41,765 bases of DNA, from contig JAGLSI010000003.1 in the NCBI GenBank assembly GCA_023135835.1, positions 1-41,765 on the forward strand. The letters are read 5' to 3'. The DNA is from Minisyncoccota bacterium (lineage in GTDB: Bacteria; Patescibacteriota; Minisyncoccia; Phycocordibacterales; UBA12079). The translations under genes and the position numbers were made by a program. The notes beneath the pieces were generated by a model. It saw only the letters and a list, made by a program, of their open reading frames with translations, was not told where the DNA came from and searched no databases. Positions 17,492 through 39,670 of the stretch are shown one piece after another (position 1 is the stretch's first letter; the number at the start of each line of letters is the position of its first letter).

Positions 17492-17642
17492 AGTCAAAAG
17501 TCTATATGCAAAGCATATAATTCCAGCGCTCGGATTATGTGAAAATGAATTTTCACAAATCCTCGCTTGAAATTATAAAGTTTATAAAGTCTATAAAGTA
17601 AAAAATTTGCTTTGCAAATTTTCTTAAAAACTATAAACTAAC
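17492..17642. repeat. Composite intergenic hairpin element (AAAGTC-type arms, nested hairpins)
   Basis: AGTCAAAAGTC...(TATAAAGT)x3, core AAAATTTGC-TTT-GCAAATTTT, plus nested hairpins at 17503-17576. Confidence 0.65.
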
Positions 17643-17654
17643 CTATTAAACAAA

Positions 17655-18344
17655 ATGTTTTTAAACAAAGAAAATTTACACCACGCTTATCTTTTAGAAG
17701 GAGAAAGGGATTTAATTTTACCAGATCTTTTGTTTTTTTTGGAAAAAGAATTAAATTTTCAAATTTCTTCTAATCCAGATTTATATTTGAGAGATTTTGT
17801 TACTTTTGGGATTGATGATGGGAAAATTATTAAAGATTTTCAGTCTAAAAAACCTGTTGTTGGAAATAAGCAAGTTATAATTATTCAAACTAATTTTATA
17901 ACTAATGAAGCTCAAAATTCATTATTAAAAATGTTTGAGGAGCCAACTAAAGATGTTCATATATTTTTAATAATTCAGTCTTCTGAAAATCTTCTAGCAA
18001 CTCTTAAATCTCGTCTTCAAATAATTAAGTTTGAAAATGATAGTGTAGACAAAGAAGATTTAGTAATAGAGTTTTTAAAATCAAATCTTTCGAAAAGATT
18101 TGATTTAATTAAAGAATTTTTACCTAAAACTACTAAAGATAAGGCTGATAAGGTTGGGGCTATACAGTTTTTAAATAGTTTGGAAAAAACTTTGCATAAA
18201 AAGTTTTCAGATAAAAAAGAAGATTTTTTAGATTTTGAAAATATTTTTATAGAAATTAGCAAGTGCCGTTCGTATTTAAATGACCGTTCCCCGTCAGTTA
18301 AAATGATTTTAGAGCATATTTCTCAAATAATTCCTATAAATTAA
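17655..18344 (+). CDS. holB: DNA polymerase III delta-prime-like clamp-loader subunit (reduced)
   Basis: HHAYLLEG, NPD, GIDD, EAQNSLLKMFEEP, LATLKSR; lacks Walker A and the Zn module. Confidence 0.75.
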   Translation: MFLNKENLHHAYLLEGERDLILPDLLFFLEKELNFQISSNPDLYLRDFVTFGIDDGKIIKDFQSKKPVVGNKQVIIIQTNFITNEAQNSLLKMFEEPTKDVHIFLIIQSSENLLATLKSRLQIIKFENDSVDKEDLVIEFLKSNLSKRFDLIKEFLPKTTKDKADKVGAIQFLNSLEKTLHKKFSDKKEDFLDFENIFIEISKCRSYLNDRSPSVKMILEHISQIIPIN

Positions 18345-18371
18345 ACATAAGGTTTTTTATATAAAGATGAT

Positions 18372-18968
18372 ATGGCTATAAATAAAACAGAGCAAATGAA
18401 AAAAATAATGGAGGAAATTTTAAATCTTAAAAAATCTCCTTTATATGCTGAAAGAATTAAAAATAAAGCTTTTCCTGTTATTGGAGAAGGGGACTGTGAT
18501 GCAGAAATTGTGTTTGTAGGGGAAGCTCCTGGGAAAAATGAAGCCAAAACAGGTAAACCTTTTTGTGGAGCTTCAGGAAGGGTTTTGGATGAACTTTTAG
18601 ACTCTATTAAATTAAAAAGAGAAGATGTTTATGTTACTAATATAGTCAAAGATAGACCAACGGCTAATAGAGATCCTTCAAAAGATGAAATTAAAATTTA
18701 CGGACCTTTTTTAGATAAGCAGATTGAAATTATTCAGCCTAAGATAATCGCTACTTTGGGGAGATATTCAGCAGAATATATTATGAAAAGATTTGGTTTG
18801 GAAGAAGAAATTGAAACAATTGGGAAAATGCGAGGAAAAGCTTTTGAGGTCAAGACTTCTTATGGCTTAGTTAAGATTATTCCTTTACTTCATCCTGCTG
18901 TGGCGTTATATAATTCATTTAGTCGCGATGACCTTAAAAAAGACTTTAAGGTTTTGGAAAATAGATAA
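18372..18968 (+). CDS. Uracil-DNA glycosylase, family 4
   Basis: VGEAPGKNE...PFCGASG, TNIVKDRP..NRDP, HPA. Confidence 0.9.
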   Translation: MAINKTEQMKKIMEEILNLKKSPLYAERIKNKAFPVIGEGDCDAEIVFVGEAPGKNEAKTGKPFCGASGRVLDELLDSIKLKREDVYVTNIVKDRPTANRDPSKDEIKIYGPFLDKQIEIIQPKIIATLGRYSAEYIMKRFGLEEEIETIGKMRGKAFEVKTSYGLVKIIPLLHPAVALYNSFSRDDLKKDFKVLENR

Positions 18969-19006
18969 AAAATAAACGGCTCATTATAATGAGCCGTTTA
19001 TTTTTT
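18967..19006 (+). terminator. Intrinsic terminator (AACGGCT family)
   Basis: AAAAAATAAACGGCTCATT-AT-AATGAGCCGTTTATTTTTT. Confidence 0.8.
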
Positions 19007-19071
19007 TATATTTCTAATGTATACTCATATTTAATGAATATTAAATTAATTAGAAAAATTGCTATTGCCAT

Positions 19072-19269
19072 GAGGGTCTGTCTATAATCTCATGTCGAAC
19101 TGAAATATCTAAATTTTTAACGAAAATTTTATCTTTTAATGAAATATACAAGAGTATATTGAGGAAAAAGAGATAATTTGCAGTAAAAATTTAGATATTT
19201 TAGTCGGCAAACTTTTCTTTTTATTTGTGGTGAGATTATAGATAGACCCTCTCGGTCGCTTCTGCGACC
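19072..19269 (+). ncRNA. Candidate long rod-shaped structured RNA or foldback element
   Basis: Nested stems 19072-19092/19231-19251 and 19093-19119/19184-19209, apical AATATAC-AAGA-GTATATT; most stem mismatches are G-U on the + strand. Confidence 0.45.
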
Positions 19270-19330
19270 CTGTAATTAGTTATTTATTATTTTTTAATTA
19301 AAAATTATTATGTTAGCAAACGAACTTAGA

Positions 19331-19361
19331 CCCGTCCTTCACTAAAGTTGCGGAGGGCAGG
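19331..19361. repeat. GC-rich imperfect palindromic element
   Basis: CCCGTCCTTC-ACTAAAGTTGC-GGAGGGCAGG. Confidence 0.55.
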
Positions 19362-19412
19362 ATATAGTAAAGTTAAATAACTTTTGTCAATTAATATAAA
19401 CAATAAACTATC

Positions 19413-21251
19413 ATGAAAGCAAACACATTACGTCAAAAATATTTAGAATTTTTTAAAACAAAAAAGCACTCTATTATTCCTAGTGCGTCAATAATGCCTG
19501 ATAATGATCCTACGACTTTATTCACAGGTTCAGGAATGCAACCAATGCTGCCTTACTTATTAGGAGAAAAACATCCAAAGGGTACTCGGCTGGTAGATTC
19601 TCAAAAAAGTTTTAGGGCTCCAGATATAGAAGATGTGGGAGATAATCGACATACAACTTTTTTTGAAATGTTGGGAAATTGGTCTTTAGGAGATTATTTC
19701 AAAAAAGAACAAATTGAATGGATGTTTGAATTTTTAACTAAAGAATTAGGACTTGATCCTAATAGGATTTATACATCTGTTTTTAGAGGGGATGAAAAAA
19801 TTGGTATTCCCAAAGACGACGAAACTGTTAAATTATGGCAGGAAAGGTTTGAAAGTGTTGGTGTAGAAGCTAGGGCTGTTGATATGGCCGAACGGGATGG
19901 AATGCAAGGAGGAAGAATTTTTTATTATGATGCTAAAGAAAACTGGTGGTCACGATCAGGAGTTCCAGATAATATGCCTGTTGGTGAACCAGGAGGGCCA
20001 GATTCTGAAATGTTTTGGGATTTTGGTGTTGATTTAAAAATTCATGAAAATTCAGAATATAAAGATCAGCCTTGTCATCCTGCTTGTGATTGTGGAAGAT
20101 TTTTGGAAATTGGGAATAATGTTTTTATGTCGTATATAAAGACGGATGCAGGGTTTGAAGAGTTAGAGAAGAAAAATATAGATTTTGGAGGAGGTTTGGA
20201 AAGAATGGTTGTGGCTGTTTTAGACAACCCAGACGTTTTTATGAGTGATTTATTTGAGGGAATGAAAATTAAAATAGAAGAGTTAACAGGAAAGAAATAT
20301 GGAGAATCTGAAGAAGTCACTTATGCATTCAGAGTAATTCTAGATCATCTAAGAGGAGCAACTTTTATTATTGGAGATGATAAAGGAGTTACTCCTTCAA
20401 ATACTGATCAAGGTTATATTGTGCGAAGATTAATTCGGAGAGCTATTCGTTATGGAAAGCAGTTGGGTATTACTCAAGAACTTTGGTTGAAAGAAATTGC
20501 TAAAGTGGTTATTGAAGATTACAAGGGTACTTATTCTGAATTAGAAAGAAATAAAGATTTTGTTTTAGAGCAATTAGATAAAGAAGAGATTCAGTTTTCT
20601 AAAACTTTGGAGAAGGGTTTGAGAGAGTTAGAAAAAGGAACCGATCCTTTTGTTTTATTCACTACCTACGGTTTCCCTATTGAAATGACTCAAGAACTGG
20701 CAAAAGAAAAAGATATTGAAGTTAATGTGGAAGATTTTCAAAATAAAATGAAAAAACATCAAGAGCTTTCACGGACAGCTTCTGTTGGAAAATTTAAATC
20801 TGGTTTAGCTGATGATTCTAAAGAAACTACTTGTTTACATACTGCTGCTCATTTACTTTTAGCTGCTTTGAAAAAAGTATTAGGGACAGAGGTAATTCAA
20901 AAAGGTTCTAATATTACAGCAGAAAGATTAAGATTTGATTTTTCTTGGGGAGAAAAAATGACAGATGAACAAAAAACTGAAGTAGAAAAAATAGTTAATG
21001 AAGCAATTCAGCAAAATATTCCTGTTGAGTGTAATGAAATGTCAATTGAAGAAGCTAAAAAACAAGGGGCTTCTGGTATTTTTGATGATAAATATGGAGA
21101 TGTTGTAAAGGTCTATAAAATTGGAGATTTTTCTCAAGAACTTTGTTCTGGACCTCATGTTGAGAATACAGAAGAATTAGGTAGGTTTAAAATAACAAAA
21201 GAAGAAAGTTCTAGTGCAGGAGTAAGGAGAATTAAGGCTGTTTTGGAATAA
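19413..21251 (+). CDS. alaS: Alanine--tRNA ligase (aminoacylation + editing domains, no C-Ala domain)
   Basis: DPTTLFTGSGMQP, RHTTFFEMLGNWS, IDFGGGLER, editing motifs HTAAH and ELCSGPH, ends GVRRIKAVLE. Confidence 0.96.
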   Translation: MKANTLRQKYLEFFKTKKHSIIPSASIMPDNDPTTLFTGSGMQPMLPYLLGEKHPKGTRLVDSQKSFRAPDIEDVGDNRHTTFFEMLGNWSLGDYFKKEQIEWMFEFLTKELGLDPNRIYTSVFRGDEKIGIPKDDETVKLWQERFESVGVEARAVDMAERDGMQGGRIFYYDAKENWWSRSGVPDNMPVGEPGGPDSEMFWDFGVDLKIHENSEYKDQPCHPACDCGRFLEIGNNVFMSYIKTDAGFEELEKKNIDFGGGLERMVVAVLDNPDVFMSDLFEGMKIKIEELTGKKYGESEEVTYAFRVILDHLRGATFIIGDDKGVTPSNTDQGYIVRRLIRRAIRYGKQLGITQELWLKEIAKVVIEDYKGTYSELERNKDFVLEQLDKEEIQFSKTLEKGLRELEKGTDPFVLFTTYGFPIEMTQELAKEKDIEVNVEDFQNKMKKHQELSRTASVGKFKSGLADDSKETTCLHTAAHLLLAALKKVLGTEVIQKGSNITAERLRFDFSWGEKMTDEQKTEVEKIVNEAIQQNIPVECNEMSIEEAKKQGASGIFDDKYGDVVKVYKIGDFSQELCSGPHVENTEELGRFKITKEESSSAGVRRIKAVLE

Positions 21252-21281
21252 AGGAGGTTATTTGTTTAATTAAAGGTAGTT

Positions 21282-21313
21282 TTTTAACGGCTCAACTTGT
21301 TGAGCCGTTAAAA
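21282..21313. terminator. Hairpin (AACGGCT family) after alaS
   Basis: TTTTAACGGCTCAAC-TT-GTTGAGCCGTTAAAA. Confidence 0.65.
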
Positions 21314-21316
21314 TTT

Positions 21317-21369
21317 TAAATAGTAGCGCTTGCTTATGCCTGCAGACGGGCTCGGAGCGCTACTATTTA
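21317..21369. repeat. AGTAGCGCT palindrome with an internal insertion
   Basis: TAAATAGTAGCGCT...CGGAGCGCTACTATTTA; an uninterrupted copy lies at 32615-32637. Confidence 0.65.
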
Positions 21370-21522
21370 GTTGTTGTAAAAACAAGGAACTTTGATACTA
21401 TTATATTAATATATTAACAATTAAATAACCCTAATTCATTTAAAAATGATCGGGTAAACTCTAAATTATTAAAATAATTAGAAAACCTTAAATCATCAAA
21501 GATGATCAGGTAAAGAAAAAAC

Positions 21523-22599
21523 ATGAATAAAACAACAAATTGGATAGTAGGAATAATTATTATAGCAGTAGTAATTTGGTTTGGATTCTTAAACAAAGAA
21601 ACAGAACCAGTTTCAATTGAGCCTATTAAGATTGGGGTAATTTTACCTTTGTCTGGAGATTATGCTTTTTTTGGTGAAAGTGAAAGAGATGCTATTAATT
21701 TAGCATTTAAAGAAACAGAAGCTAATGTTGAAGTTATTTTTGAGGATGATGGATTTGATGCTAAGAAAGCCGTTTCTGCTTATCATAAATTAACAAGTGT
21801 TGATAATGTTGATATTTTAATAAATGCAGATAGTATTGCTTTTCCAGCGATTTACCCTTTAATTAAGCAAGATGAAATTTTAACTTTTCAAATCTTTGAA
21901 TCAAGTAGTCGGTTTAAAGATACTGTTTTTCAAGTAATGCCTCATAGTTACGCTTTGTTTTCTAAATTAGGGGAAATTAGTGATAGTAAATACGATACAG
22001 TAGCTCTAGTATATGGTAGTGGAGAATTTTTAGTGAAAGATGCAGATTATTTTAAGAAAATGATGCCAGAAAATAAAATTGTTTATGAAATAATGTTGGG
22101 TTCTAATTCTGATTATAGAACAGAAGTATTAAAATTATTAGCAGAAAAACCTGAAGCAACAACTTTATTTTTATCTGTAGCTGATGGAATAAAATTTTTG
22201 AAAGCACTTGAAGATCAAAAAGGAAATACAGACATTGATTTAATATGTGATGCTAATATAGAAATGAGCATAGGTCAGTATATAGAAGCTGTTGGAAGTG
22301 ATATTTTTGAAGATTGTTTTTCAACAAATTTACCTAATCAAATGACAGATGATTTTAAGCTTAAGTTTGAACAAGAATATGGGAACGAGCCAATATTTTC
22401 AGCAGATTATGCATATGATATTGCTTTGATTATAAGCGATCTTATAAAACAACCAAAGTCAGATTGGCTAGACATTGCTCAAAATATTTCTTTAAGCGGG
22501 GCATCAGGAATTGTTAAATTTGATGAGATGGGAACAAGATTACCAGCGTCAGAGACTCATATTTTTAAAGACGGGGAATTTATACTATATGAAGAATAA
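21523..22599 (+). CDS. Branched-chain amino-acid type (LivJ-like) substrate-binding protein, membrane-anchored
   Basis: N-terminal TM; IKIGVILPLSGDYAFFG, FEDD, DYRTEVLK, AYD, GASGIVKFDEMG. Confidence 0.85.
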   Translation: MNKTTNWIVGIIIIAVVIWFGFLNKETEPVSIEPIKIGVILPLSGDYAFFGESERDAINLAFKETEANVEVIFEDDGFDAKKAVSAYHKLTSVDNVDILINADSIAFPAIYPLIKQDEILTFQIFESSSRFKDTVFQVMPHSYALFSKLGEISDSKYDTVALVYGSGEFLVKDADYFKKMMPENKIVYEIMLGSNSDYRTEVLKLLAEKPEATTLFLSVADGIKFLKALEDQKGNTDIDLICDANIEMSIGQYIEAVGSDIFEDCFSTNLPNQMTDDFKLKFEQEYGNEPIFSADYAYDIALIISDLIKQPKSDWLDIAQNISLSGASGIVKFDEMGTRLPASETHIFKDGEFILYEE

Positions 22600-22629
22600 T
22601 TAAATTATTAAAATTTAATTTAGAATTAT

Positions 22630-22666
22630 AAAAAACTGTTTATATAAGTATATAGGCAGTTTTTTT
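22630..22666 (+). terminator. Intrinsic terminator
   Basis: AAAAAACTGTTTATATA..TATATAGGCAGTTTTTTT. Confidence 0.65.
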
Positions 22667-22820
22667 ATTTAAGTAAGCTTGTTACTACTATTTTATTTTT
22701 ATGGTAAAATATAAGGATAAAAATAATTATTAATAAGTATGGAGTGGAGGGTATAGAAAAGTTTGTGAAGTAATTTTTCTAATTATCTAATCTACCTAAC
22801 ACCTAAATAACTAAATTATT

Positions 22821-24074
22821 ATGAACAAAAAATTACAAGATGTAACTCCTCCTAAAAGGACGATTCACGATATTCCTGTTCCGAATGGTAAGGGGAGAGG
22901 AAGAAATCCGATTTCTGATTTTAAGAGTGATAAAAAGAAGAAAACTTCTTTTAGTAAAAAAATTATTATAGCAGTAATTTTTGGACTTATTGCTTTTCTT
23001 CTATTTAGTTTTTTAGCTTCTTCTAGTGTGACAGTAAATGTTATTTCTAGGCAATTAACAAAAAGAACAGATGCTAGTTTTATAGCTGTTTCTAGTAATG
23101 AGACTGGTGGAATTCCTTTTGATGTTGTGATGTTAGATAAAACTATTGTAGAGTCAATAGTTGCTACAGGAGAAGAGGAAGTGAATGAAAAAGCTAGTGG
23201 GGAAATAATTGTTTTTAATAATTTTGATTTTGAAAATCAGAGATTAATAAAAAATACTCGTTTTGAAACTTCAGAAGGTTTGGTTTTTAGAATTCAAAAT
23301 TCTGTAGTTGTCCCTGGGCAAAAGGAGGATTCATCGGGAGAAGTTATTCCTGGGAGTATAGAAGTAACTGTTTATGCTGATCAGCCTGGGGAAGAATATA
23401 ACGTAGGGCTAAAAGATTTTACTATTCCTGGTTTTGAGGGAACAGAGAGATTTGATAAATTCTATGCTCGTTCAAAAACTGTTATGGCAGGTGGTTTTGA
23501 GGGAGTAAAAAAGGTTGCTTCTGAAAAAGATGTAGAAAATATGCAAATACAATTAGGAGAGAGGTTGATTGCTGAATTAACGGAAGAAATTAAAACTCAA
23601 ATACCTGAAGGGTTCGTTTTGTATCAGAATGGTATTTTCTCAGAAACTAAGTTTTTAGGAACTAAGGATATGGGAGATAAAGTCGGGGTAGAAGAGAAAG
23701 TTAATGTTTACGCAGTAATTTTTAATAGAGGTGATTTAAGTAAATATGTAGCTGAAAATATTATAGATAATTATGATGGTGCTGATTTAATAATTTCTAA
23801 TTTAGATAACTTAGATTTTGAGATAAAGAATAAAGATGATGTTATTCCTTGGGTAGAAGAGAGATTTGTATTTTCCTTAAAAGGAGAGTGTAATTTTGAA
23901 TGGACTTTTGATGAAGATGACTTAAAAAATGATTTTGTAGGGAAGTCAAAAAGTAGTACTAATGAGATATTATCTAGATATCCAAGCATAGATTCAGCAG
24001 AAGTAATCATTAAACCTTTTTGGAAAAACTCTTTTCCTCGTAGTACTGGGAATATAGAAATAGTTTTAAATTAA
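22821..24074 (+). CDS. Membrane-anchored hypothetical protein with a baseplate-J-like beta domain
   Basis: TM at aa ~47-66; KASGEIIVFN...LIKNTRF...VVVPG...VTVYADQPGEEYNV...GG pattern. Confidence 0.6.
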   Translation: MNKKLQDVTPPKRTIHDIPVPNGKGRGRNPISDFKSDKKKKTSFSKKIIIAVIFGLIAFLLFSFLASSSVTVNVISRQLTKRTDASFIAVSSNETGGIPFDVVMLDKTIVESIVATGEEEVNEKASGEIIVFNNFDFENQRLIKNTRFETSEGLVFRIQNSVVVPGQKEDSSGEVIPGSIEVTVYADQPGEEYNVGLKDFTIPGFEGTERFDKFYARSKTVMAGGFEGVKKVASEKDVENMQIQLGERLIAELTEEIKTQIPEGFVLYQNGIFSETKFLGTKDMGDKVGVEEKVNVYAVIFNRGDLSKYVAENIIDNYDGADLIISNLDNLDFEIKNKDDVIPWVEERFVFSLKGECNFEWTFDEDDLKNDFVGKSKSSTNEILSRYPSIDSAEVIIKPFWKNSFPRSTGNIEIVLN

Positions 24075-24111
24075 CTTAAATTATATAAAAAAGACTTTGT
24101 TATAAAAAGAC

Positions 24112-24140
24112 TTGAAAAAAAAGAGGGTTTTTGTTAGAAT
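24112..24140 (+). promoter_or_regulatory. Strong sigma70 promoter for the infA-rpsI cluster
   Basis: TTGAAA-17-TAGAAT with a TGn extension. Confidence 0.65.
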
Positions 24141-24160
24141 AACTCTCGTTACTTTAAATA

Positions 24161-24391: not shown

Positions 24392-24407
24392 CCTTAAATT
24401 TGGAAGC

Positions 24408-24521: not shown

Positions 24522-24706
24522 TTATTTTGCCTACAGATTTGAATTTGGCTTGCCGAATTTAAATCTGTGGTTGCAAAATAATATCCCTCACCCAGAGTGG
24601 GGAAGAATTTTAATAAAAGAAAAAAGCAAAAGATTGATTATATAAATTAAATATATATAATTATCGCTGGGTGAAGGGATTGAGATTTTCTAAATGAATT
24701 TATCTC
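24521..24706 (+). promoter_or_regulatory. Structured intergenic leader before rpsM
   Basis: Hairpin 24521-24582 with G-U pairs; long-range stem 24583-24595/24667-24680. Confidence 0.45.
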
Positions 24707-24739
24707 GCTTTACTCGAAAATTAATTAAGAAAAACTATA

Positions 24740-25117
24740 ATGAGAATTTCAGGAATTACAATCCCAGATGAAAAAAGATTAGAAATAGGCTTGACTATTT
24801 TATATGGTGTGGGAAGATCCCTTGCTCATAAAATTTTAGATGAAGCCAAGGTAGATTATGGAAAAAAATCTAAAGATTTAAGCGCTGATGAAGAAAAAAA
24901 TATTAGAAAGATTATAGAAGAGTATAAGTTAGAAGGAAATTTAAAGAGAGAAATAAGTGGAAATATTAAGAGATTGATTGATATTAAGTCATACAGAGGT
25001 TCTAGACATACAAAAAGTTTACCTTGTCGGGGGCAAAGAACTAGAACAAACGCTAGAACTTTACGAGGTAAAAAGAAAACAATGGGTTCAGGTAGGAAAA
25101 AAGCAGATAAAAAATAA
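24740..25117 (+). CDS. rpsM: 30S ribosomal protein S13
   Basis: RISG, LTILYGVG, SYRGSRH, RGQRTRTNART. Confidence 0.97.
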   Translation: MRISGITIPDEKRLEIGLTILYGVGRSLAHKILDEAKVDYGKKSKDLSADEEKNIRKIIEEYKLEGNLKREISGNIKRLIDIKSYRGSRHTKSLPCRGQRTRTNARTLRGKKKTMGSGRKKADKK

Positions 25118-25122: not shown

Positions 25123-25227
25123 TTAGGGATTAGGGATTAGCTAGTTAGCTGGTTAGAGAAAAAATTCACAAAGTAAATTTTTTCTAACAAGCTAATTAGT
25201 TAAAAAGCTAAAATCCTAGTAAGCTAA
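25123..25227. repeat. Intergenic hairpin element with TTAGCT/AGCTAA tandem arms
   Basis: TTAGGGA/TTAGCTNG units, core AAAAAATTCAC-AAA-GTAAATTTTT, then CTAA units. Confidence 0.7.
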
Positions 25228-25233
25228 ATAAAT

Positions 25234-25678: not shown

Positions 25679-25776
25679 TTAGGAAATTAGGAATTAGCTT
25701 ATTAGCTTGTTAGAGGAAAAATCGTTTTAAGATTTTTCTCCTAACAAGCCAATAAGCTAGCCAGCTAAAAAGCTAA
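25679..25776. repeat. Intergenic hairpin element with TTAGCT/AGCTAA tandem arms
   Basis: TAGCTTATTAGCTTGTTAG...CTAACAAGCCAATAAGCTA. Confidence 0.7.
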
Positions 25777-25780
25777 AAAA

Positions 25781-27887: not shown

Positions 27888-28232
27888 ATGGAATATAACT
27901 TAGATGCAAAAGGAGAAAAATTAGGAAGATTAGCTACTCAGATAGCGATTTTATTGATGGGTAAAAATAAAGCCAATTTTGCTAAGAATGAATTAGCTGA
28001 TGTTAAGGTTAATGTAACTAATGCTTCAAAGTTAGATATTACAAAAAAGAAAATGAAGCAAACCGAATACCAAAGATACTCAGGTTTTCCGGGAGGAAGG
28101 AAGGTTGAGAATATGGAAAAAGTAATTGCTGATAAAGGTTACACTGAAATTTTAAACAAAGCGGTTTATGGAATGCTTCCTGGGAATAAACTTCGTCCAT
28201 TAATAATGAAAAACTTAATAATAAAAGAATAG
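27888..28232 (+). CDS. rplM: 50S ribosomal protein L13 (short form)
   Basis: DAKGEKLGRLA, LMGK, YSGFPGG, AVYGMLP. Confidence 0.94.
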   Translation: MEYNLDAKGEKLGRLATQIAILLMGKNKANFAKNELADVKVNVTNASKLDITKKKMKQTEYQRYSGFPGGRKVENMEKVIADKGYTEILNKAVYGMLPGNKLRPLIMKNLIIKE

Positions 28233-28348
28233 TCAAAAGTTACTAAAGTCTATAAAGTCCATAACCTGCTTGCCGGCAGGCAGGAGTTAGAAAAATCACA
28301 AAGTGATTTTTTAAAAAAAAGACTTTCGACTTTATAGACTTTACGACT
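28231..28348. repeat. Intergenic hairpin element with AAAGTC/GACTTT arms, containing a 20-bp GC palindrome
   Basis: AAAGT units, CCTGCTTGCCGGCAGGCAGG at 28265-28284, core AAAAATCAC-AAA-GTGATTTTT, GACTTT x3. Confidence 0.75.
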
Positions 28349-28356
28349 AATGTATT

Positions 28357-32637: not shown

Positions 32638-32650
32638 AGAATAGATAAAT

Positions 32651-32681: not shown

Positions 32682-32705
32682 CTAGTGAAGAGCGGTATAA
32701 AAGAA

Positions 32706-32897: not shown

Positions 32898-33048
32898 TTT
32901 TTCCTCCTTTGTCTTTGTGAATTAAAAAATACAACTAAATTTAGAATACATAAAAAAGACTTAAAAAGCAAGGATTGTTGAATAATTGGTATTTTTGCAA
33001 GTTTTTTGGTAAAATTCCATAAGAGTAAAATATAATAATATTGTGCAT

Positions 33049-33242
33049 GCCAAGGTGAATGAATGCGAGTTTCGTAGTATTCATCTGGAGCGAAGCGGAA
33101 GAGGGTTTGGTAGACGCGCTAGTCGAGCGAATGAAAAATGAACGACTTCATTTTTCATCCGATTTTTCAGGAAGAAAAAATTTTCGTTATCAAATGATAG
33201 TGAGATAGAAAATAGGGCTAGTGGAGTTTCTTCGCTAATTCC
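33049..33242 (+). pseudogene. Fragmented duplicate of the 5' part of tRNA-Leu, interrupted by hairpin insertions
   Basis: Blocks GCCAAGGTG, GCGAA, TTGGTAGACGCGCTAGTC and CTAGTGGAG are collinear with the tRNA at 33277; same upstream TAATATTGTGCAT. Confidence 0.75.
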
Positions 33243-33276
33243 TAAAATAGTAAGTTTAAAATATAATATTGTGCAT

Positions 33277-33358
33277 GCCGAGGTGGCGAAATTGGTAGAC
33301 GCGCTAGTCTTAGGAACTAGTGGAGCAATCCGTGGGAGTTCAAGTCTCCCCCTCGGCA
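33277..33358 (+). tRNA. tRNA-Leu (TAG)
   Basis: GCCGAGG/CCTCGGC acceptor, CTAGT-CTTAGGA-ACTAG anticodon arm, variable arm, GTTCAAG; CCA not encoded. Confidence 0.96.
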
Positions 33359-33426
33359 CAAAAATAATGGAAAAAATACGATAGTATTTGTGTAATCTAT
33401 TTTAGGTTTTTTATCCTATTAAAAAT

Positions 33427-33891
33427 ATGAAAATAAGAAAAGCAAAAAAAGAAGATATTTTATCTATATTAAAGCTTGTAGAAAAAATGGTTGATTTTCA
33501 CTATGCTATAGATAAAATATATAAACCTTATAAAGAATATAAAGAATTAGAAAAATATTTTAAAAGTTTAATTAATACTAAAGATAATATTTTAGTTGTT
33601 GTTGAAAACGAAAATAAGATAATTGGTTTTTTAGAAGGAGGTATTGAAAAAGCTTCTAATGATGTGATGTTTGATAAAATAGGAACTATTAATAATATTT
33701 TTATTGAAGAAAAATTTAGAAATAAAGGAATTGCTAAAAAATTATTAAAATATATTTTTGAATATTTCAAATCAAAAAATATAGAATATATTCAAATAAG
33801 TACAGATGCTAGAAATAAAGTAGGGAAGGAATTTTGGAAGAAAAATAATTTTTTTGAATATCAAATAAAAATGTTAAGAAAATTAAAATAA
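33427..33891 (+). CDS. GNAT-family N-acetyltransferase
   Basis: IRKAKKED, IFIEEKFRNKGIAKKLL (motif A), FWKKNNF. Confidence 0.9.
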   Translation: MKIRKAKKEDILSILKLVEKMVDFHYAIDKIYKPYKEYKELEKYFKSLINTKDNILVVVENENKIIGFLEGGIEKASNDVMFDKIGTINNIFIEEKFRNKGIAKKLLKYIFEYFKSKNIEYIQISTDARNKVGKEFWKKNNFFEYQIKMLRKLK

Positions 33892-33897
33892 TTTTTT

Positions 33898-34815
33898 ATG
33901 AACATCCAAGCTCAAAAATCAGAAAATATTAGAAAGACATATTTGCTAATGTCTTTATTTTTAATTATTGTGATTGGAATTGGTTGGTTTTTTTCTGAAC
34001 TAATGGATAGTCGAAATATTTTATATTTTGCAGTAGGATTTTCTCTTTTGATGAATATTTTTTCATATTGGTATTCAGATAAGGTTGTTTTAAAAATGTC
34101 AGGAGCTAAACAAATAAAAAGAGAAGAAAATAGAAATCTTTTTGATACTGTTGAGAGATTATCTAGACAAGCTCATTTACCCATTCCTAAAGTTTATATA
34201 ATGAATGATCAATCTTTGAATGCTTTTGCCACAGGTAGAAATGCAAAAAATTCAGCTGTAGCAGTAACCCAAGGTTTATTAAACGTTTTAGAACAAAGAG
34301 AGCTAGAAGGGGTGATTGCTCACGAACTTTCTCATATTCAAAATAATGACATTTTAATTTCTACTATTATTGTAGTTTTGGTAGGTTTTGTATCACTTTT
34401 GTCTGATTTCTTTTTAAGAATGTCTATTTTTGGAGGATTAAGAGATAATGAAAACAATTCTGCTGGTTCAGTAATGGCTATTGTTGGGATAGTTTTGGCT
34501 ATTTTAGCTCCTTTTGTAGCTATGATAATTCAATTAGCTATTTCTAGAAAAAGAGAATTTTTAGCGGATGCTTCCGGAGCTTCTTTAACTCATAATCCGT
34601 CTGGTTTAGCTAGTGCTTTGGAAAAAATTTCTTCTAGTTCTGTACAAATGAAAAAAGCTTCTAGAGCTACTGCTCATATATTTATTTCTAATCCATACAA
34701 AAAGAACTCTAAACATTCTGTCGGGCAAAGAAAAAGAACTAGTTTTTTAGCTAAGATGTTTATGACCCATCCTCCAACAGAGGAAAGAATTAATGCTTTG
34801 TTAGGAAGAAGATAG
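33898..34815 (+). CDS. htpX: Zinc metalloprotease HtpX (M48)
   Basis: NAFATGR, HELSH, SRKREFLAD, THPP. Confidence 0.94.
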   Translation: MNIQAQKSENIRKTYLLMSLFLIIVIGIGWFFSELMDSRNILYFAVGFSLLMNIFSYWYSDKVVLKMSGAKQIKREENRNLFDTVERLSRQAHLPIPKVYIMNDQSLNAFATGRNAKNSAVAVTQGLLNVLEQRELEGVIAHELSHIQNNDILISTIIVVLVGFVSLLSDFFLRMSIFGGLRDNENNSAGSVMAIVGIVLAILAPFVAMIIQLAISRKREFLADASGASLTHNPSGLASALEKISSSSVQMKKASRATAHIFISNPYKKNSKHSVGQRKRTSFLAKMFMTHPPTEERINALLGRR

Positions 34816-34823
34816 ATTTAAAT

Positions 34824-35507
34824 ATGGAAAATAAAAATAAAGAAATTAAGGAAGATTTTGTTTTAGAAAAATATAATTTTTTAAAATTAGAAAATGAAAT
34901 CAAGAGTCTTAAGAAAATAATATTAGATAAAGATGAAAAGATAAAAGAGCTTTCTTCTTTATATCAAAGAGATTTTTTAACTTTGCTTTATAATAGGCAT
35001 GGTTTTATGGCAGAGGTTGATAAAATTATAGATGAAGGTCGTAAATTAAAAAATAAGCAAGATAAAAGAAAGATTATATTAGAAGCTTTTTCTTTAATTT
35101 TTATTGATGTTGATGACTTGAAAAAAATAAATGATAAGTGTGGTCATTCTAAAGGAGATGAAGTTTTAAAAATGATGGCAGAAGTATTTAAATCATCAGT
35201 AAGAAAATTTGATATAGTTGCTAGGTGGGGAGGAGATGAATTTATAATTGGTTTGGTGGGGGTTAATTCTGAAAAAGCTGTTGAGATTGCTGAAAATATA
35301 AAAAAGAAAATTCAATTATTAGAAGTTGGAGGCAAAAAATTAAGTGTTAGTTTTGGAATAACAGATGTAATTGATAACTGTATAGAAAATAAAGAAGATA
35401 TTATTGCTTTGGTGGAAAAAGCTGATGAGGCTATGTATAGAGCAAAAAGTAGGTTAGGCAAAAACACGATAGTTGTTTATAATTGTAAAACAGGTTTGTA
35501 TGAATAA
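34824..35507 (+). CDS. GGDEF diguanylate cyclase with an N-terminal coiled coil
   Basis: DFLTLLYNR, DVDDLKKINDKCGH, RKFD I-site, WGGDEF, ADEAMY. Confidence 0.92.
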   Translation: MENKNKEIKEDFVLEKYNFLKLENEIKSLKKIILDKDEKIKELSSLYQRDFLTLLYNRHGFMAEVDKIIDEGRKLKNKQDKRKIILEAFSLIFIDVDDLKKINDKCGHSKGDEVLKMMAEVFKSSVRKFDIVARWGGDEFIIGLVGVNSEKAVEIAENIKKKIQLLEVGGKKLSVSFGITDVIDNCIENKEDIIALVEKADEAMYRAKSRLGKNTIVVYNCKTGLYE

Positions 35508-35538
35508 GGGAAATAATTATTAATTAACAAAAAATATT

Positions 35539-35922
35539 ATGCATAATACAAAAAATTTATCTATGTTTGGGATTGGAGCGGTTGTTATTTTTATTTTGGT
35601 TTTGCTTTGGGCAATTCCTCAGTATAAAGTATGGACACAAGAATTAAACGGAAAGGCTTTGTTTAAAGAAGCTGAGTGGAGTCGTCAAATTGCTGTTGAA
35701 GAAGCAAGGGCTAAAAAAGAATCAGCAATTTTAGAAGCAGAGGCGGAAGTTGAAAGAGCCAAGGGTGTGGCTGAGGCTAATGATATTGTAGCTGGATCTT
35801 TGGAAGGGAATGAGGAGTATTTAAGATATCTTTGGATAAATGGTCTTCAGACAAATGAAATGCAGGTAATTTATGTTCCTACAGAAGCAGGGTTGCCGAT
35901 TTTGGAGGCAGGGAGACGATAA
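35539..35922 (+). CDS. Small membrane-anchored SPFH/band-7-like coiled-coil protein
   Basis: TM; AEAEVERAKGVAEAN; YLRYLWI; IYVPTEAGLPILE. Confidence 0.6.
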   Translation: MHNTKNLSMFGIGAVVIFILVLLWAIPQYKVWTQELNGKALFKEAEWSRQIAVEEARAKKESAILEAEAEVERAKGVAEANDIVAGSLEGNEEYLRYLWINGLQTNEMQVIYVPTEAGLPILEAGRR

Positions 35923-35966
35923 GTTAGCTTGTTAGGGATTAGCTTTTTAGTTAGTTAGAGAAAGTG

Positions 35967-36006
35967 AAAAATCTAACGGCTACGCTACTGTAGCCGTTAG
36001 ATTTTT
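35967..36006. terminator. Bidirectional terminator (AACGGCT family)
   Basis: AAAAATCTAACGGCTAC-GCTACT-GTAGCCGTTAGATTTTT. Confidence 0.75.
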
Positions 36007-36111
36007 TGTTGCGGGCAACCTCGTGCTGGAACCGTTGGGTATCAAGCCCTGTAAGGCAGTTTTAATCTTTTTATGACTAATAATCGAAAGATCCTCGTGC
36101 ACCTTTAGTCT

Positions 36112-36603
36112 CTATAGGTTTACTAATTTTGAAATATTATTTGGCAAATAATCAATTCCGCCGAATTCTTTTATGGGAATAGATTTAATTTTTTCCTTAA
36201 TTTCATCTTTAACATAAGTAATCGTCATTTCTTTTGTTCCGCCAATACTTTCACAGTCATCTTCAACTAAAACATCTGGTGTGATTCTTTCAGCAACATC
36301 TTTGTATCTCTCATCTTTTTGACGAAATAACAATTGACCATCTGGGAACTTGTATTTTTCGAGAACATTTTGTATTTGTTTGATTTCTTCTGATTTTCTA
36401 CGAGAAGTCAGATATAAAATTTCTGCATTATCATTTTTCCAATTCTGCAATTTTTTAACTGCATTGCCAATAGGAATATATGATTTATAATCATGCACAG
36501 ATTTTCGTTTATTTTCAACTTGTTTAACAATTTCATCACGAGTATGACCTGTTGCATTTTTGTGCATGATTATTGTTCCTTCTGTAAAAATTAGTATTTT
36601 CAT
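36112..36603 (-). CDS. HAD-like fold hypothetical protein (catalytic Asp apparently replaced)
   Basis: ILIFTEGTI (cf. DxDGT), YLTSR, LVEDD. Confidence 0.6.
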   Translation of the reverse strand: MKILIFTEGTIIMHKNATGHTRDEIVKQVENKRKSVHDYKSYIPIGNAVKKLQNWKNDNAEILYLTSRRKSEEIKQIQNVLEKYKFPDGQLLFRQKDERYKDVAERITPDVLVEDDCESIGGTKEMTITYVKDEIKEKIKSIPIKEFGGIDYLPNNISKLVNL

Positions 36604-36635
36604 ATTTTTTAGTTCTTCGTGCTAGCACGATGTTG

Positions 36636-36722
36636 CGGAGAGAACAGGATTCGAACCTGCGGTGGAGTTTCCCCCACGCTTGCTTTCCAAGCAAGTACCT
36701 TAAACCACTCAGCCATCTCTCC
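36636..36722 (-). tRNA. tRNA-Ser (GGA)
   Basis: Minus strand GGAGAGATGGCTGAGTGG...CTTGC-TTGGAAA-GCAAG...long variable arm...GTTCGAATCC...CTCTCCG. Confidence 0.96.
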
Positions 36723-36764
36723 ATAAAATATTCTTTTTATTATACTAGATAAATAGATTTTATA

Positions 36765-36802
36765 AAGTAAAAAGTGTCGGCTAAAGCCGACACTTTTTAC
36801 TT
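36765..36802. terminator. Terminator hairpin
   Basis: AAGTAAAAAGTGTCGGC-TAAA-GCCGACACTTTTTACTT. Confidence 0.7.
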
Positions 36803-36823
36803 ATGTAACTTATATATGTTTTT

Positions 36824-37006
36824 CTATTGTTGTTTAAAATATATATACAAAACATAAATTCCTGGAATAGCGAATGTGAACCAGAGAATATTTGTCCAAT
36901 TTAGCCAAAATTCTGACCAATAAGAACCTATGATAATTCCAATAGAAACTACACACACTTCATAAAGTGCAGCTTGCCACCACTTAAAAGTAAAATTATG
37001 TAACAT
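36824..37006 (-). CDS. Small two-TM membrane protein
   Basis: 60-aa hydrophobic, Trp-rich ORF with a downstream terminator. Confidence 0.55.
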   Translation of the reverse strand: MLHNFTFKWWQAALYEVCVVSIGIIIGSYWSEFWLNWTNILWFTFAIPGIYVLYIYFKQQ

Positions 37007-37014
37007 AAAATTTT

Positions 37015-37115
37015 AGTCAAAAGTCCTTAATGTCAAAAGTCAAAAGTCTTGAAAAAATTTGCAAAGAAAATTTTTTAATTTTAGGGACTTTACAGACTTT
37101 ATAGACCTTTAACTT
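37015..37115. repeat. Intergenic hairpin element with AAAGTC/GACTTT arms
   Basis: AGTCAAAAGTC...GTCAAAAGTCAAAAGTC, core AAAAAATTTGC-AAA-GAAAATTTTTT, GACTTTACAGACTTTATAGAC. Confidence 0.7.
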
Positions 37116-37226
37116 AGTTGTTAATTAATAAAAGCTATTTCTTATATAATTATACTATAAAGTAGCAAAAACAAGGCTTTTTATGGTGTAAAACTTTACT
37201 TTTTTACCTAGATGTATCGTTTTGGT

Positions 37227-37235
37227 TTATCCACA
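37227..37235 (+). promoter_or_regulatory. Consensus DnaA box upstream of nrdJ
   Basis: TTATCCACA. Confidence 0.45.
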
Positions 37236-37312
37236 GTTTTTTTGTTGGCGCTTCATGTAAAATAAGAAAGTAAATAAAAAATTATTAATTTCTAGTAAAA
37301 ACTGTAAAGAAT

Positions 37313-39601
37313 ATGTCTAAAACAACAAAAAAAGTAGCAAAAAAACAAGATTTAGTGAAAAAAATTCAAAAAAGAGATGGTTCAGTAATAGATTTTAATT
37401 TAGATAAGATTGTAAATGCGATTTATAAAGCAATGTTGGCTTCAGGTGAGGGATCAGAGAGAGAATCAGAATTACTTGCAAATAAAGTTTATTTAGACTT
37501 GGTAAAGATTTCTAAAAGATATAAAAACTTTATTCCAACAGTAGAAGGGGTTCAGGATTCAGTTGAAACTGAATTGGTTCAAAATGACTATGTTAGGACG
37601 GTAAAAGGATATATTTTATATAGGCAAGAAAGAGCAAAGTTAAGAGAACAAGGGGTAAAAGTTCCAGAAAAGGTGAGAAAATTAGTAGAAGAAGGGAAAA
37701 AATACTTTAAAAATCCTTTAGCGGAATTTGTTTATTATCGTTCTTATTCAAAATGGATAGAAGGAGAAGGAAGAAGAGAGACTTGGATAGAAACAGTTGA
37801 TAGGTATGTGGATTTTATGAAAGAGAATTTAGGAGATAAATTAAAACCAGCTGAATATAAAAAAGTAAGAGAATTTATTTTAAATCAAAAATCAATGCCG
37901 TCTATGAGGTTGTTTTGGAGTGCTGGAAAAGCTGCTCGTAGATGTAATGCAGCCGCTTATAATTGTTCTTATATTGCCCCTTCAAGACTACAAGATTTTG
38001 GAGAAATTATGTATTTATCAATGTGTGGTTGTGGAGTAGGGTTTAGTGCTGAAAGTTATAATGTTCAAAAGCTTCCTCAAATTAAAATTCATAATGGTAA
38101 ATTAAAAATGCGAAAGGCTTTTGTAGTTGATGATTCTAAAGAAGGGTGGGCTAACGCATTTGTTCATGGTTTAAAAACTTGGTTTGATGGTGAAGATGTT
38201 CGTTTTGATTTTTCCCAATTAAGACCAGAAGGGGCGAAGTTAGTAACAATGGGAGGAAAAAGTTCAGGACCAGATCCTTTGAAAAATTTAATTGATTTTA
38301 CTAGAGAAAGAGTTTTGAAAATGCATGGGAAAAGATTAAGTAATTTAGATGTGCATGATATTGTTTGTAAAATTGGAGAAGTGGTTGTTTCTGGAGGAGT
38401 AAGAAGAACGGCTTTAATTTCTCTTTCTGATTTAGATGATAATGAAATGAGGTTTGCTAAAAATGGACAATTTTATTTAAATAATAGTCAAAGGACAATG
38501 GCTAATAACTCTACTGCTTATAACGAAAAACCAAGTACTGCTGATTTCATGGATGAGTGGGTGGCTTTAATGAAAAGTGGAGCAGGGGAAAGAGGTATTT
38601 TTAATAGAAGTTCTTTAGAACAACAATTACCAGAACGAAGAAGAGAGATTTTTAAAAATCATATGGAAGACTTTGGGGTAAACCCTTGTGGAGAAATTAA
38701 TATTAGATCAAAACAATTTTGTAATTTAAGTGAGTTGGTGGCTCGTTCTGAAGATACTTTAAAAACACTATTAGAAAAAGCAGAAATAGCTACATTGCTA
38801 GGAACATATCAGGCTACTTTGACTCATTTTGATTATTTATCTAAAGATTGGAAAAAGAATTGTGAAGAAGAGAGGTTATTGGGTGTTTCAATTACAGGGC
38901 ATTGGGATTGTAAGGCTGTACAAGATGTAAAAGTTTTAGAAAAGTTAAAAAATCATGTAATTAAGTCCAACCAAAAATACTCTAAAAGATTTGGAATTAA
39001 TCCTGCTACCAGCACTACTTGTGTTAAACCTTCAGGAACAGTATCACAATTAGTAGATTGTGCTTCAGGAATGCATCCCAGGCATTCAAAATACTATATT
39101 AGAAGAATAAGAATTTCTTCCACAGATTCATTATTTAAGATGTTAAGAGACCAAGGTGTTCCTTATCAGCCTGAAAACGGGCAATCAAAAGAAAATGCTA
39201 ATACTTATGTATTTGAATTTCCTGTTAAATCTCCTGTTGACTCAAAATTATTTAAAAATGATTTAACCGCTATGGACCAATTAAAGCATTGGGAAATGGT
39301 TAAAAGATATTACACAGAACACAATCCCTCAGTAACTGTTTCAGTTAGTGATAACGAATGGATAGAAGTTGCCGATTGGGTTTATAGTAATTGGGATATA
39401 GTAGGTGGTTTATCTTTTTTGCCTAGAAATGATTTTGTGTATCAATTAGCTCCTTTTAAAGAAACAGATGTAAAAACTTATGAGGATATGTTGAAGAGGT
39501 TTAAAGGGGTAGATTTTTCTAAAATTGTTACTTACGAGAAAGAAGATGAAACTGAGGGTTCAAAAGAGATGGCTTGTGTTGCTGGTCTTTGTGAAGTTTA
39601 G
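37313..39601 (+). CDS. nrdJ: Class II (adenosylcobalamin-dependent) ribonucleotide reductase with an N-terminal ATP cone
   Basis: KRDG ATP cone, YNC, GGVRRTA, NPCGEI, FCNLSE, CVKPSGT, C-terminal CVAGLC. Confidence 0.9.
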   Translation: MSKTTKKVAKKQDLVKKIQKRDGSVIDFNLDKIVNAIYKAMLASGEGSERESELLANKVYLDLVKISKRYKNFIPTVEGVQDSVETELVQNDYVRTVKGYILYRQERAKLREQGVKVPEKVRKLVEEGKKYFKNPLAEFVYYRSYSKWIEGEGRRETWIETVDRYVDFMKENLGDKLKPAEYKKVREFILNQKSMPSMRLFWSAGKAARRCNAAAYNCSYIAPSRLQDFGEIMYLSMCGCGVGFSAESYNVQKLPQIKIHNGKLKMRKAFVVDDSKEGWANAFVHGLKTWFDGEDVRFDFSQLRPEGAKLVTMGGKSSGPDPLKNLIDFTRERVLKMHGKRLSNLDVHDIVCKIGEVVVSGGVRRTALISLSDLDDNEMRFAKNGQFYLNNSQRTMANNSTAYNEKPSTADFMDEWVALMKSGAGERGIFNRSSLEQQLPERRREIFKNHMEDFGVNPCGEINIRSKQFCNLSELVARSEDTLKTLLEKAEIATLLGTYQATLTHFDYLSKDWKKNCEEERLLGVSITGHWDCKAVQDVKVLEKLKNHVIKSNQKYSKRFGINPATSTTCVKPSGTVSQLVDCASGMHPRHSKYYIRRIRISSTDSLFKMLRDQGVPYQPENGQSKENANTYVFEFPVKSPVDSKLFKNDLTAMDQLKHWEMVKRYYTEHNPSVTVSVSDNEWIEVADWVYSNWDIVGGLSFLPRNDFVYQLAPFKETDVKTYEDMLKRFKGVDFSKIVTYEKEDETEGSKEMACVAGLCEV

Positions 39602-39606
39602 AAATA

Positions 39607-39670
39607 GATTTGAGAGATAAGATTTAGGGTTTATGATTTAAGGATGGATTTTGGCTTTGCCAAAATCCAT
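39607..39670. repeat. GATTT-repeat arm plus hairpin
   Basis: GATTTG/GATTTA units, then ATGGATTTTGGC-TTT-GCCAAAATCCAT. Confidence 0.55.

What the first reader, a model, noticed from the sequence alone, without database searches (positions are those of the whole stretch)
17492..39670. Family of intergenic hairpins with tandem-repeat arms and a shared core
Seen: elements fill much of the gap between stop and next start with [tandem 7-9-mers]-[A-tract/T-tract hairpin]-[reverse-complement tandem units]. Arm types differ: AAAGTC/GACTTT (17492, 28231, 37015), TTAGCT/AGCTAA (25123, 25679, half copy 35924, degenerate ~22755-22815) and GATTT (39607). Different arm types share the core, e.g. AAAAA(T)TCAC-AAA-GT(G/A)A(A)TTTTT at 25159 and 28291. 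Three interrupt the normally compact ribosomal-protein operon. Inference: an unnamed non-autonomous element or mRNA processing/translation-coupling structure; repeat arms would allow register-slipped pairing.
Basis: partly seen in the sequence, partly recalled or inferred. Interest (0 to 1): 0.7.

Follow-up and report, generated by a model that had tools for sequence, protein, structure and literature searches.

The report
Gene-less copies of four-helix-bundle cassettes
The repeat-armed hairpins between genes of this tiny uncultured bacterium are real, and at least the commonest type is the empty form of a small cassette that elsewhere in the same genome wraps a four-helix-bundle gene in the same arms, so that unexplained protein family likely helps spread a long-unexplained class of 7-9-base bacterial repeats.

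Summary
The hairpins are real. Of the eight sites named, four have matching arms, one has mismatched arms and three are half-elements. The genome holds about 20 such spacers against 0.3 in shuffles. On contig C15 the same AAAGT/ACTTT arms enclose a 114-aa four-helix-bundle gene (PF05635, 23S rRNA intervening-sequence protein). That arm word follows one protein subfamily across phyla (28 of 34 close homologues). Many arrays occur in 7 of 16 genomes with the subfamily versus 3 of 42 with only other subfamilies. The elements come, go and swap arm type at orthologous junctions and also sit inside RNase P RNA. The arms do not covary, show no RNA-strand bias and no link to reverse transcriptases. 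Best reading: gene-less relics of a selfish, IVS-like cassette, likely spread by DNA-level exchange at the arm word; the mechanism is untested. The link is strong for AAAGT arms and weak for TTAG/TAGCT arms. This scan reported the same layout on other DNA many times; my searches found no paper on it outside rRNA.

The parts
17492..17651 (+). Hybrid element between mreB and holB: AAAGT-type left arm (17492-17599, interrupted), core hairpin 17600-17622, right arm of a different type (17628-17651) ending 3 nt before the ATG
   Evidence: the orthologous site in G005 also has an AAAGT element
17503..17577 (.). Nested, separate ~75-nt hairpin element bounded by TATA words, inserted in the left arm
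   Evidence: near-identical copies at C2, C1 and C7, more distant relatives on at least six other contigs
22755..22814 (+). Half element: core plus CTAA-type right arm before the ATG at 22821; left arm degenerate
   Evidence: fold not significant (z -1.4)
25123..25228 (+). Complete TTAG/TAGCT-type element between rpsM and rpsK; core 25159-25183
   Evidence: (z -6.2)
25679..25777 (+). Complete TTAG/TAGCT-type element between rpsK and rpsD; core variant 25717-25737
   Evidence: z -6.3; a similar element is at the same site in G001, a 25-nt spacer in G005
28231..28350 (+). Complete AAAGT-type element between rplM and rpsI, overlapping the rplM stop; nested 20-nt GC-rich palindrome 28265-28284; core 28291-28311
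   Evidence: (z -7.2); arm 5-mer profile 0.84 similar to the flanks of the C15 gene
35924..36006 (+). TTAG-type left arm only (35924-35963) after a stop codon, followed by an unrelated long hairpin (35967-36006)
37013..37114 (-). Complete AAAGT-type element read on the minus strand, upstream of the 60-aa ORF 36824-37006; core 37052-37076
   Evidence: z -3.0 on minus; 0.80 to C15 flanks
39606..39670 (+). GATTT-type left arm only (39606-39643) after the nrdJ stop, followed by a separate palindrome (39644-39670)
   Evidence: arm resembles flanks of another PF05635 subfamily (0.50-0.59)

Best explanation
The hairpins are gene-less copies of a small cassette, a four-helix-bundle (PF05635) gene enclosed by two inverted arrays of a 7-9-base word, and they likely spread and swap by DNA-level exchange at that word, probably helped by the cassette's own protein. 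SHOWN: (1) the AAAGT arms of the window are the arms of the gene-bearing copy at G000:C15:2592-2936, between ftsE and ftsX; (2) each arm word follows one protein subfamily; (3) full and empty forms sit at stop-to-start junctions, pointing with the host operon, and also inside RNase P RNA; (4) they are gained, lost and exchanged at orthologous sites; (5) in empty copies a short A-tract/T-tract palindrome stands where the gene would be, and other small palindromes nest inside. INFERRED: (6) the arms would pair in the transcript and loop the insert out, keeping the upstream stop near the downstream start, which would explain tolerance in ribosomal operons and RNase P RNA; (7) the protein, likely a pentamer like its solved relatives, would recognise its own word in both arms as inverted binding sites and promote copying or replacement through host recombination; (8) once made, empty copies persist for long periods without the gene, reshuffling units by slippage and conversion. 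I put about 0.85 on the identity (1-5) for AAAGT arms, less for TTAG/TAGCT arms, and about 0.4 on step 7.
For: C15 gene flanked by four left and four right AAAGT units; window arms at 17492, 28231 and 37013 score 0.80-0.84 against its flanks. A second arm type in G000 occurs as a gene-bearing copy (C21), an internally deleted copy with both arms (C16) and an empty hairpin (C17). Arm word tracks the protein tree: AAAGT arms in 28 of 34 homologues at >=58% identity versus 2 of 65 below; 4 label changes versus 16.4 in shuffles, 0 of 500 as low, on a quick tree of 99 rows (96 distinct; 8 of 107 dropped for broken or cut ORFs) that mixes Patescibacteria, Bacteroidota and Gammaproteobacteria. Across 150 genomes of the order, >=10 arm 14-mers in 7 of 16 with the cognate subfamily, 3 of 42 with only other subfamilies, 3 of 92 with none found (Fisher p = 0.003 against other subfamilies). 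rplM-rpsI spacer: element in 4 of 19 family genomes (two arm types), 1-22 nt in 14, 45 nt in 1. One host junction carries gene-bearing cassettes of at least three arm types in five relatives and a plain 28-nt spacer in G000; another carries two types and a 2-nt spacer in G000. Hybrids with mismatched arms around the same core exist. For DNA-level rather than RNA-level constraint: no covariation, G-U-compatible mismatches 18 sense to 24 antisense, sense strand folds better in 7 of 14, purine face of the core loop 17 sense to 11 antisense.
Against: No experiment or RNA data. Arm-protein co-inheritance is also what simple physical linkage would give; kin are not independent. 7 of 14 array-rich genomes of the family have no cognate gene found, and G005 (96% complete) has 47 arm 14-mers with no PF05635 match; MAG gaps may or may not explain this. 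9 of 16 genomes with the cognate gene have few arrays. Turnover is slow: 11 of 22 G005 sites are shared with G000 in the same arm type. No consistent target-site duplication was visible at empty versus filled junctions (by eye). The TTAG/TAGCT arms at 25123 and 25679 match PF05635 flanks only weakly (0.24-0.32), and no gene with those arms was found in G000. The 114-aa protein has no catalytic domain (only PF05635), so a partner enzyme is required and none was identified.
Confidence: 0.6

Rival explanations
1. Retro-element: RNase III would cut the paired arms out of the host transcript, as for rRNA intervening sequences, and the Avd-like protein would bind the released RNA and recruit a reverse transcriptase in trans; empty hairpins would be SINE-like copies.
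For: PF05635 is homologous to Avd (PMC10053308, passages), a pentamer whose five protomers contact an RNA stem-loop and which an RT needs (bioRxiv 10.1101/2023.10.23.563531, passages). The Coxiella IVS has heptamer repeats and is cut by RNase III in vitro (PMC4990558, passages). G000 has RNase III and one RT. Elements point with transcription: left arms 27:4 nine- to seven-nt spacings, right arms 12:22, p = 3e-5.
Against: RT found in 7 of 13 array-rich genomes versus 58 of 137 others (p = 0.56); single-contig G011 has 58 arm 14-mers and no RVT_1 match. G000's RT is not beside a PF05635 gene. No RNA-strand bias in pairing. Both copies in RNase P RNA look reversed relative to the mRNA-type polarity (by eye).
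Confidence: 0.15
2. Host regulatory system: the four-helix-bundle protein is an RNA-binding regulator, and the hairpins are its dispersed binding sites that tune translation initiation or coupling of the downstream gene.
For: Right arms end 5-9 nt before the ATG in 13 of 14 parsed copies; 27 of 625 called ORFs have a right arm just before the start; 11 of 22 sites kept between G000 and G005. The same idea was proposed for TAACTGA repeats before start codons, including ribosomal genes (PMC4679880, abstract, passages and section 16).
Against: The same junctions are empty or hold another arm type in close kin; downstream genes share no function; copies lie inside RNase P RNA and in frame in a coding sequence; arrays persist where no gene is found.
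Confidence: 0.13
3. The arms are REP-like or MITE-like repeats moved by some other enzyme (for example a HUH/Y1 transposase acting on the triloop core), and the four-helix-bundle gene is only a passenger captured between them.
For: The core is a short palindrome with a purine triloop on one strand (GCAAAGC, GCGAAGC among the commonest of 161 intergenic triloop hairpins; that such loops are very stable in single-stranded DNA is recalled, not tested). It is shared by all arm types and by hybrids. The window encodes a Y1_Tnp with its own REPs.
Against: Gene-bearing copies mostly lack the core. Arm word follows the protein subfamily across phyla and predicts array load, which a passenger would not need. 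The Y1 gene's REPs are a different sequence.
Confidence: 0.09
4. Ordinary terminators or locally grown microsatellite hairpins in an AT-rich genome, with no common origin.
For: Genome is about 30% GC; several left arms run into terminator-like hairpins (35924, 39606).
Against: 20 versus 0.3 expected; 80 arm 14-mers versus 1 for the reversed control pattern; near-identical copies at three junctions of G004; position inside ribosomal operons and RNase P RNA; identity with the arms of a gene-bearing cassette.
Confidence: 0.03

Closest known systems
ORF-bearing 23S rRNA intervening sequences (Coxiella, Leptospira, Xanthomonas; S23p / PF05635; PMC4990558)
   Same: Same protein family (E 1.7e-34 to PF05635; E 8e-11 to PDB 2GSC); ORF enclosed by complementary ends; heptamer repeats just upstream of the ORF; ORF in the sense of the host transcript.
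   Different: Here in mRNA spacers and RNase P RNA, not seen in rRNA; most copies lack the gene; several arm words coexist; excision by RNase III not tested.
Dispersed heptamer repeats: TAACTGA of Beggiatoaceae, Cyanobacteria and Bacteroidetes (PMC4679880); cyanobacterial STRR (name recalled, not read)
   Same: Short degenerate tandem words, oriented, ending a few bases before start codons, including in ribosomal operons; patchy across phyla; origin stated as unknown.
   Different: That paper describes direct repeats, almost no inverted pairs, and does not mention four-helix-bundle or S23 proteins (0 hits). Here arm and anti-arm pair and a gene-bearing form is identified.
Avd of diversity-generating retroelements
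   Same: Homologous pentameric four-helix-bundle fold that binds nucleic acid.
   Different: No RT, template repeat or target gene seen beside the C15 gene; no RT enrichment in array-rich genomes.
REP/BIME and Correia-type MITEs (features recalled from general knowledge)
   Same: Small intergenic hairpins with presence/absence variation, nesting in one another.
   Different: No transposase in the full form, no consistent target duplication seen, arms are degenerate tandem arrays. A separate MITE-like insert nests in the 17492 copy.

Membership tests
ORF-bearing rRNA intervening sequence (IVS) | Carries an S23p / PF05635 ORF | tested here: met
   Met by the full form at C15; the window copies themselves are gene-less
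ORF-bearing rRNA intervening sequence (IVS) | Complementary ends that can form a long stem around the insert | tested here: met
   Window folds z -3 to -7 for complete copies; C15 flank duplex -41 kcal/mol
ORF-bearing rRNA intervening sequence (IVS) | Lies in a helix of 23S or 16S rRNA | tested here: not met
   Copies are in mRNA spacers and RNase P RNA; the one GC-rich contig scanned as the likely rRNA contig (C20) had one left-arm match and no right arm or core
ORF-bearing rRNA intervening sequence (IVS) | Excised by RNase III without religation | not testable with these tools
   RNase III gene present; no RNA run listed
Non-autonomous mobile element (MITE-like) | Presence/absence at orthologous sites | tested here: met
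Non-autonomous mobile element (MITE-like) | Shares its ends with a gene-bearing partner | tested here: met
   AAAGT type; weak for TTAG/TAGCT type
Non-autonomous mobile element (MITE-like) | Partner encodes a transposase | tested here: not met
   Only PF05635 in the 114-aa protein
Non-autonomous mobile element (MITE-like) | Target-site duplication | tested here: inconclusive
   None consistent by eye, but the nearest empty alleles are about 12-15% diverged
Diversity-generating retroelement / RT-linked element | Reverse transcriptase beside or co-occurring with the Avd-like gene | tested here: not met
Conserved structured cis-regulatory RNA | Compensatory changes between paired arms and a sense-strand G-U bias | tested here: not met
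   (19 copies, outer 19 nt of each arm): 59 versus 63.1 expected; 18:24
Known Rfam family | Match at gathering score | tested here: not met
   only two tRNAs pass

The most novel reading that the evidence does not exclude
PF05635 four-helix-bundle proteins are the word-specific mobility factors of a widespread class of transposase-free selfish cassettes: each subfamily reads its own 7-9-base word, and the dispersed heptamer hairpins of CPR bacteria, Bacteroidota and others are its non-autonomous copies, with rRNA intervening sequences as a special case. That would give a natural series of small pentameric proteins with distinct, readable sequence specificities.
Probability: 0.35. Interest if true: 0.85.

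Novelty: new variant of a known kind. Interest (0 to 1): 0.55.

Why it matters
It ties two old loose ends together: a protein family of unknown function known from rRNA intervening sequences, and short tandem repeats before start codons whose origin the literature calls unknown. The pairing of arm word with protein subfamily gives a direct, cheap test: cognate versus non-cognate binding. It also shows that very small CPR genomes tolerate layered selfish hairpins inside ribosomal operons and RNase P RNA, which affects annotation (RNase P scores 32 bits here, far under Rfam's cut-off of 100) and probably breaks assemblies.

Tried and rejected
Rfam scan of the window: no family for the elements. 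Covariation and G-U strand bias between arms: none; sense versus antisense folding: no bias. RT-helper association: none. My early idea that G005 lacks the elements because it lacks the gene was wrong: G005 has 47 arm 14-mers and 16 cores at other sites. Target-site duplication: looked for by eye, none consistent. Sequencing runs: no RNA holder listed; contigs of a co-occurring relative about 12% diverged skip the three ribosomal elements, but their spacers equal G005's, so this is not independent; no same-strain empty allele was seen among the joints shown. Complex prediction on four copies of the C15 protein: no verdict. The careful tree did not finish; the quick tree was used. In-place collapse of a gene-bearing copy: G000 shows only arm remnants at 3 of 26 junctions where relatives carry the gene, and no such gene was evident by eye at rpsM-rpsK or rpsK-rpsD in the family and order loci printed. 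Literature searches with no hits; one search gave one listing, not read. Most subscription papers are outside the library, and no supplements were opened.
Full report
Setting. The window is contig C23 of a 573-kb, about 30% GC genome in 35 contigs, 90% complete. The closest named homologues of its cassette gene are from Patescibacteria, so I treat it as a CPR genome. The region holds mreB, holB, the rpsM-rpsK-rpsD-rpoA-rplQ-rplM-rpsI block, dnaK and nrdJ.

Observation. All eight sites are there. Four are complete with matching arms (25123, 25679, 28231, 37013), one is a hybrid (17492) and three are halves (22755, 35924, 39606). Complete copies fold at z -3 to -7 against shuffles; 22755 does not. 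Genome-wide, 20 of 463 intergenic regions show an arm chain and its reverse-complement chain, against 0.3 in shuffles. The AAAGT family has 50 unit clusters or cluster pairs (21 left-right pairs; some single clusters are chance matches in coding sequence), with units 7 or 9 nt apart. The core palindrome occurs 34 times between genes with several arm types, including mismatched pairs. Rfam has nothing for them.

The gene between the arms. A PF05635 search of the genome gave three hits. At C15:2592-2936, between ftsE and ftsX, a 114-aa four-helix-bundle gene has four AAAGT units ending just before its ATG and the reverse-complement units starting in its last codons and ending before the ftsX start. 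The window's AAAGT arms score 0.80-0.84 against these flanks by 5-mer profile. A second arm type shows the whole series in one genome: gene-bearing (C21, right end cut by the contig), internally deleted with both arms (C16) and empty hairpin (C17). The GATTT arm at 39606 resembles flanks of another subfamily in relatives (0.50-0.59). The TTAG/TAGCT arms at 25123 and 25679 match only weakly (0.24-0.32), so their link rests on shared layout and core.

Arm word follows protein subfamily. In 27 gene loci from this genome and relatives, different subfamilies carry different words. Adding 80 loci from genome contigs and dropping 8 with broken or cut ORFs, AAAGT arms flank 28 of 34 proteins at >=58% identity to the C15 protein and 2 of 65 below; on a quick tree the label needs 4 changes against 16.4 shuffled, and the group mixes Patescibacteria, Bacteroidota and Gammaproteobacteria. 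Linkage alone would also cluster the label. A more independent test: among 150 genomes of the order, ten or more arm 14-mers occur in 7 of 16 with the cognate subfamily, 3 of 42 with only other subfamilies and 3 of 92 with none found (p = 0.003 and 5e-5; no correction for kinship, but the seven are in seven families). Against a strict need for the gene: 7 of 14 array-rich genomes of the family have no cognate gene found, and 9 of 16 carriers have few arrays.

Gain, loss and exchange. At rplM-rpsI, 4 of 19 family genomes have an element (two AAAGT, two GATTT), 14 have 1-22 nt and one has 45 nt. G004 has near-identical GATTT copies at three junctions of this operon. In the 28 new order-level loci returned, rpsM-rpsK is 48 nt or less in 24 of 28 and rpsK-rpsD 39 nt or less in 21 of 27. 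The closest relative, G005, has short spacers at all three ribosomal junctions, while G001 shares the rpsK-rpsD element with G000. Of 22 distinct G005 AAAGT sites, 11 have the same type at the orthologous G000 site, 1 a remnant, 4 another or degenerate arm type, 2 nothing, and 4 could not be traced. So turnover is real but slow. One host junction holds gene-bearing cassettes with at least three arm words in five relatives and a plain spacer in G000; another holds two types and a 2-nt spacer in G000.

Structured RNA and nesting. RNase P RNA of G000 holds two AAAGT hairpins. One is shared almost letter for letter with G005 and absent from G001 and G002; the other is shared with G002 and absent from G001 (3 of 5 relatives aligned). 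From the alignment both extend existing helices, which is how rRNA intervening sequences sit. Other small elements nest in the arms: a 20-nt GC-rich palindrome at 28265 and a ~75-nt TATA-bounded hairpin at 17503-17577 with its own copies elsewhere.

RNA or DNA. The elements point with transcription: in 14 parsed copies before an ATG, left arms use 9-nt spacing 27:4 and right arms 7-nt spacing 22:12, and the last unit ends 5-9 nt before the ATG in 13 of 14 (copies were found by their right arm, which may bias this). But spacers of paired units do not covary, and mismatches do not favour G-U on the sense strand. Sense and antisense fold equally, and the core loop faces either way. What is conserved is the word and its spacing, not an exact helix. 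RNase III and one short RT are present, but RTs are not enriched in array-rich genomes (7 of 13 versus 58 of 137). No RNA run was listed.

Mechanism. I read the family as a selfish cassette that is tolerated because its arms would loop it out of the transcript and leave an AT-rich start region for the next gene (inferred). Its protein is related to the pentamer 2GSC and to Avd. I think it most likely recognises its own word in the two inverted arrays and favours copying or replacement by host recombination, with old hairpins as landing sites; this fits hotspots, hybrids and arm swaps. It is untested, and no catalytic partner is known. The retro and regulatory readings remain open at lower odds.

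Comparison with what is known. PMC4990558 (search listing and passages): the Coxiella 23S IVS has an S23p ORF, heptamer repeats before it, a terminal stem and RNase III cleavage in vitro. PMC4679880 (abstract, passages, section 16): oriented heptamer repeats before start codons, no mechanism evident, no mention of four-helix-bundle proteins. PMC10053308 (passages) and bioRxiv 10.1101/2023.10.23.563531 (passages): PF05635 is homologous to Avd, which binds an RNA stem-loop as a pentamer. Searches for the link outside rRNA found nothing, within a library that lacks most subscription papers; supplements were not opened and could hold such a remark. Earlier notes of this scan describe the same layout in many other genomes; I had reached my reading before that look-up.

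Verdict. Real; works like an ORF-bearing intervening sequence moved out of rRNA, but it is not a member in the strict sense, and it is not a classical MITE. New variant of a known kind, interest 0.55. What this case adds is the tie between one arm word, one protein subfamily and genome-wide array load, plus negative tests for covariation and RT dependence.

Noticed in passing
window 2901-4143: Y1_Tnp (PF01797, E 3e-7) ORF 3374-4114 with four copies of a GC-rich palindrome around and inside it: RAYT/REP-like locus.
   Followed up: no
window 17503-17577; G000 C1, C2, C7, C12, C14, C17, C25, C30: A separate TATA-bounded ~75-nt hairpin family; three of its four closest copies sit inside AAAGT arms at the TATA of the spacer, as does a copy in G005.
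   Followed up: partly
G000:C34:9900-10600 (L068): RNase P RNA swollen by several insertions; scores only 32 bits to RF00010, and all five same-genus relatives fall under the cut-off too.
   Followed up: partly
G000:C12 near 31900 and G005 L205: A single AAAGT arm lies inside a coding sequence in both genomes; in G000 a GC-rich palindrome has nested in it.
   Followed up: no
window 12140-12900 and genome-wide: Several other small palindrome families, for example three copies of a 22-nt perfect palindrome around ORF 12206-12643 (Trp-repressor-like), and about 14 copies of another with a CAA/TTG loop.
   Followed up: no
window 24522-24740: rpmJ-rpsM spacer (about 220 nt) holds two further hairpins unlike the tandem-arm type; similar sequences sit at rpsM-rpsK or rpsK-rpsD in G003, G008 and G010.
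   Followed up: no
G000:C30:15358-15909 (L149): Lone 301-aa reverse transcriptase, no PF05635 gene beside it; type not determined.
   Followed up: no
G005 contigs C3, C5, C9, C10: Contigs begin or end inside AAAGT arms, so the elements appear to break assemblies; gene-bearing alleles could be lost this way.
   Followed up: partly
G004:C14:3461-3802 (L221): A copy of the cassette at the same ftsE-ftsX junction as in G000 has an in-frame stop, showing decay of the gene with both arms kept.
   Followed up: partly
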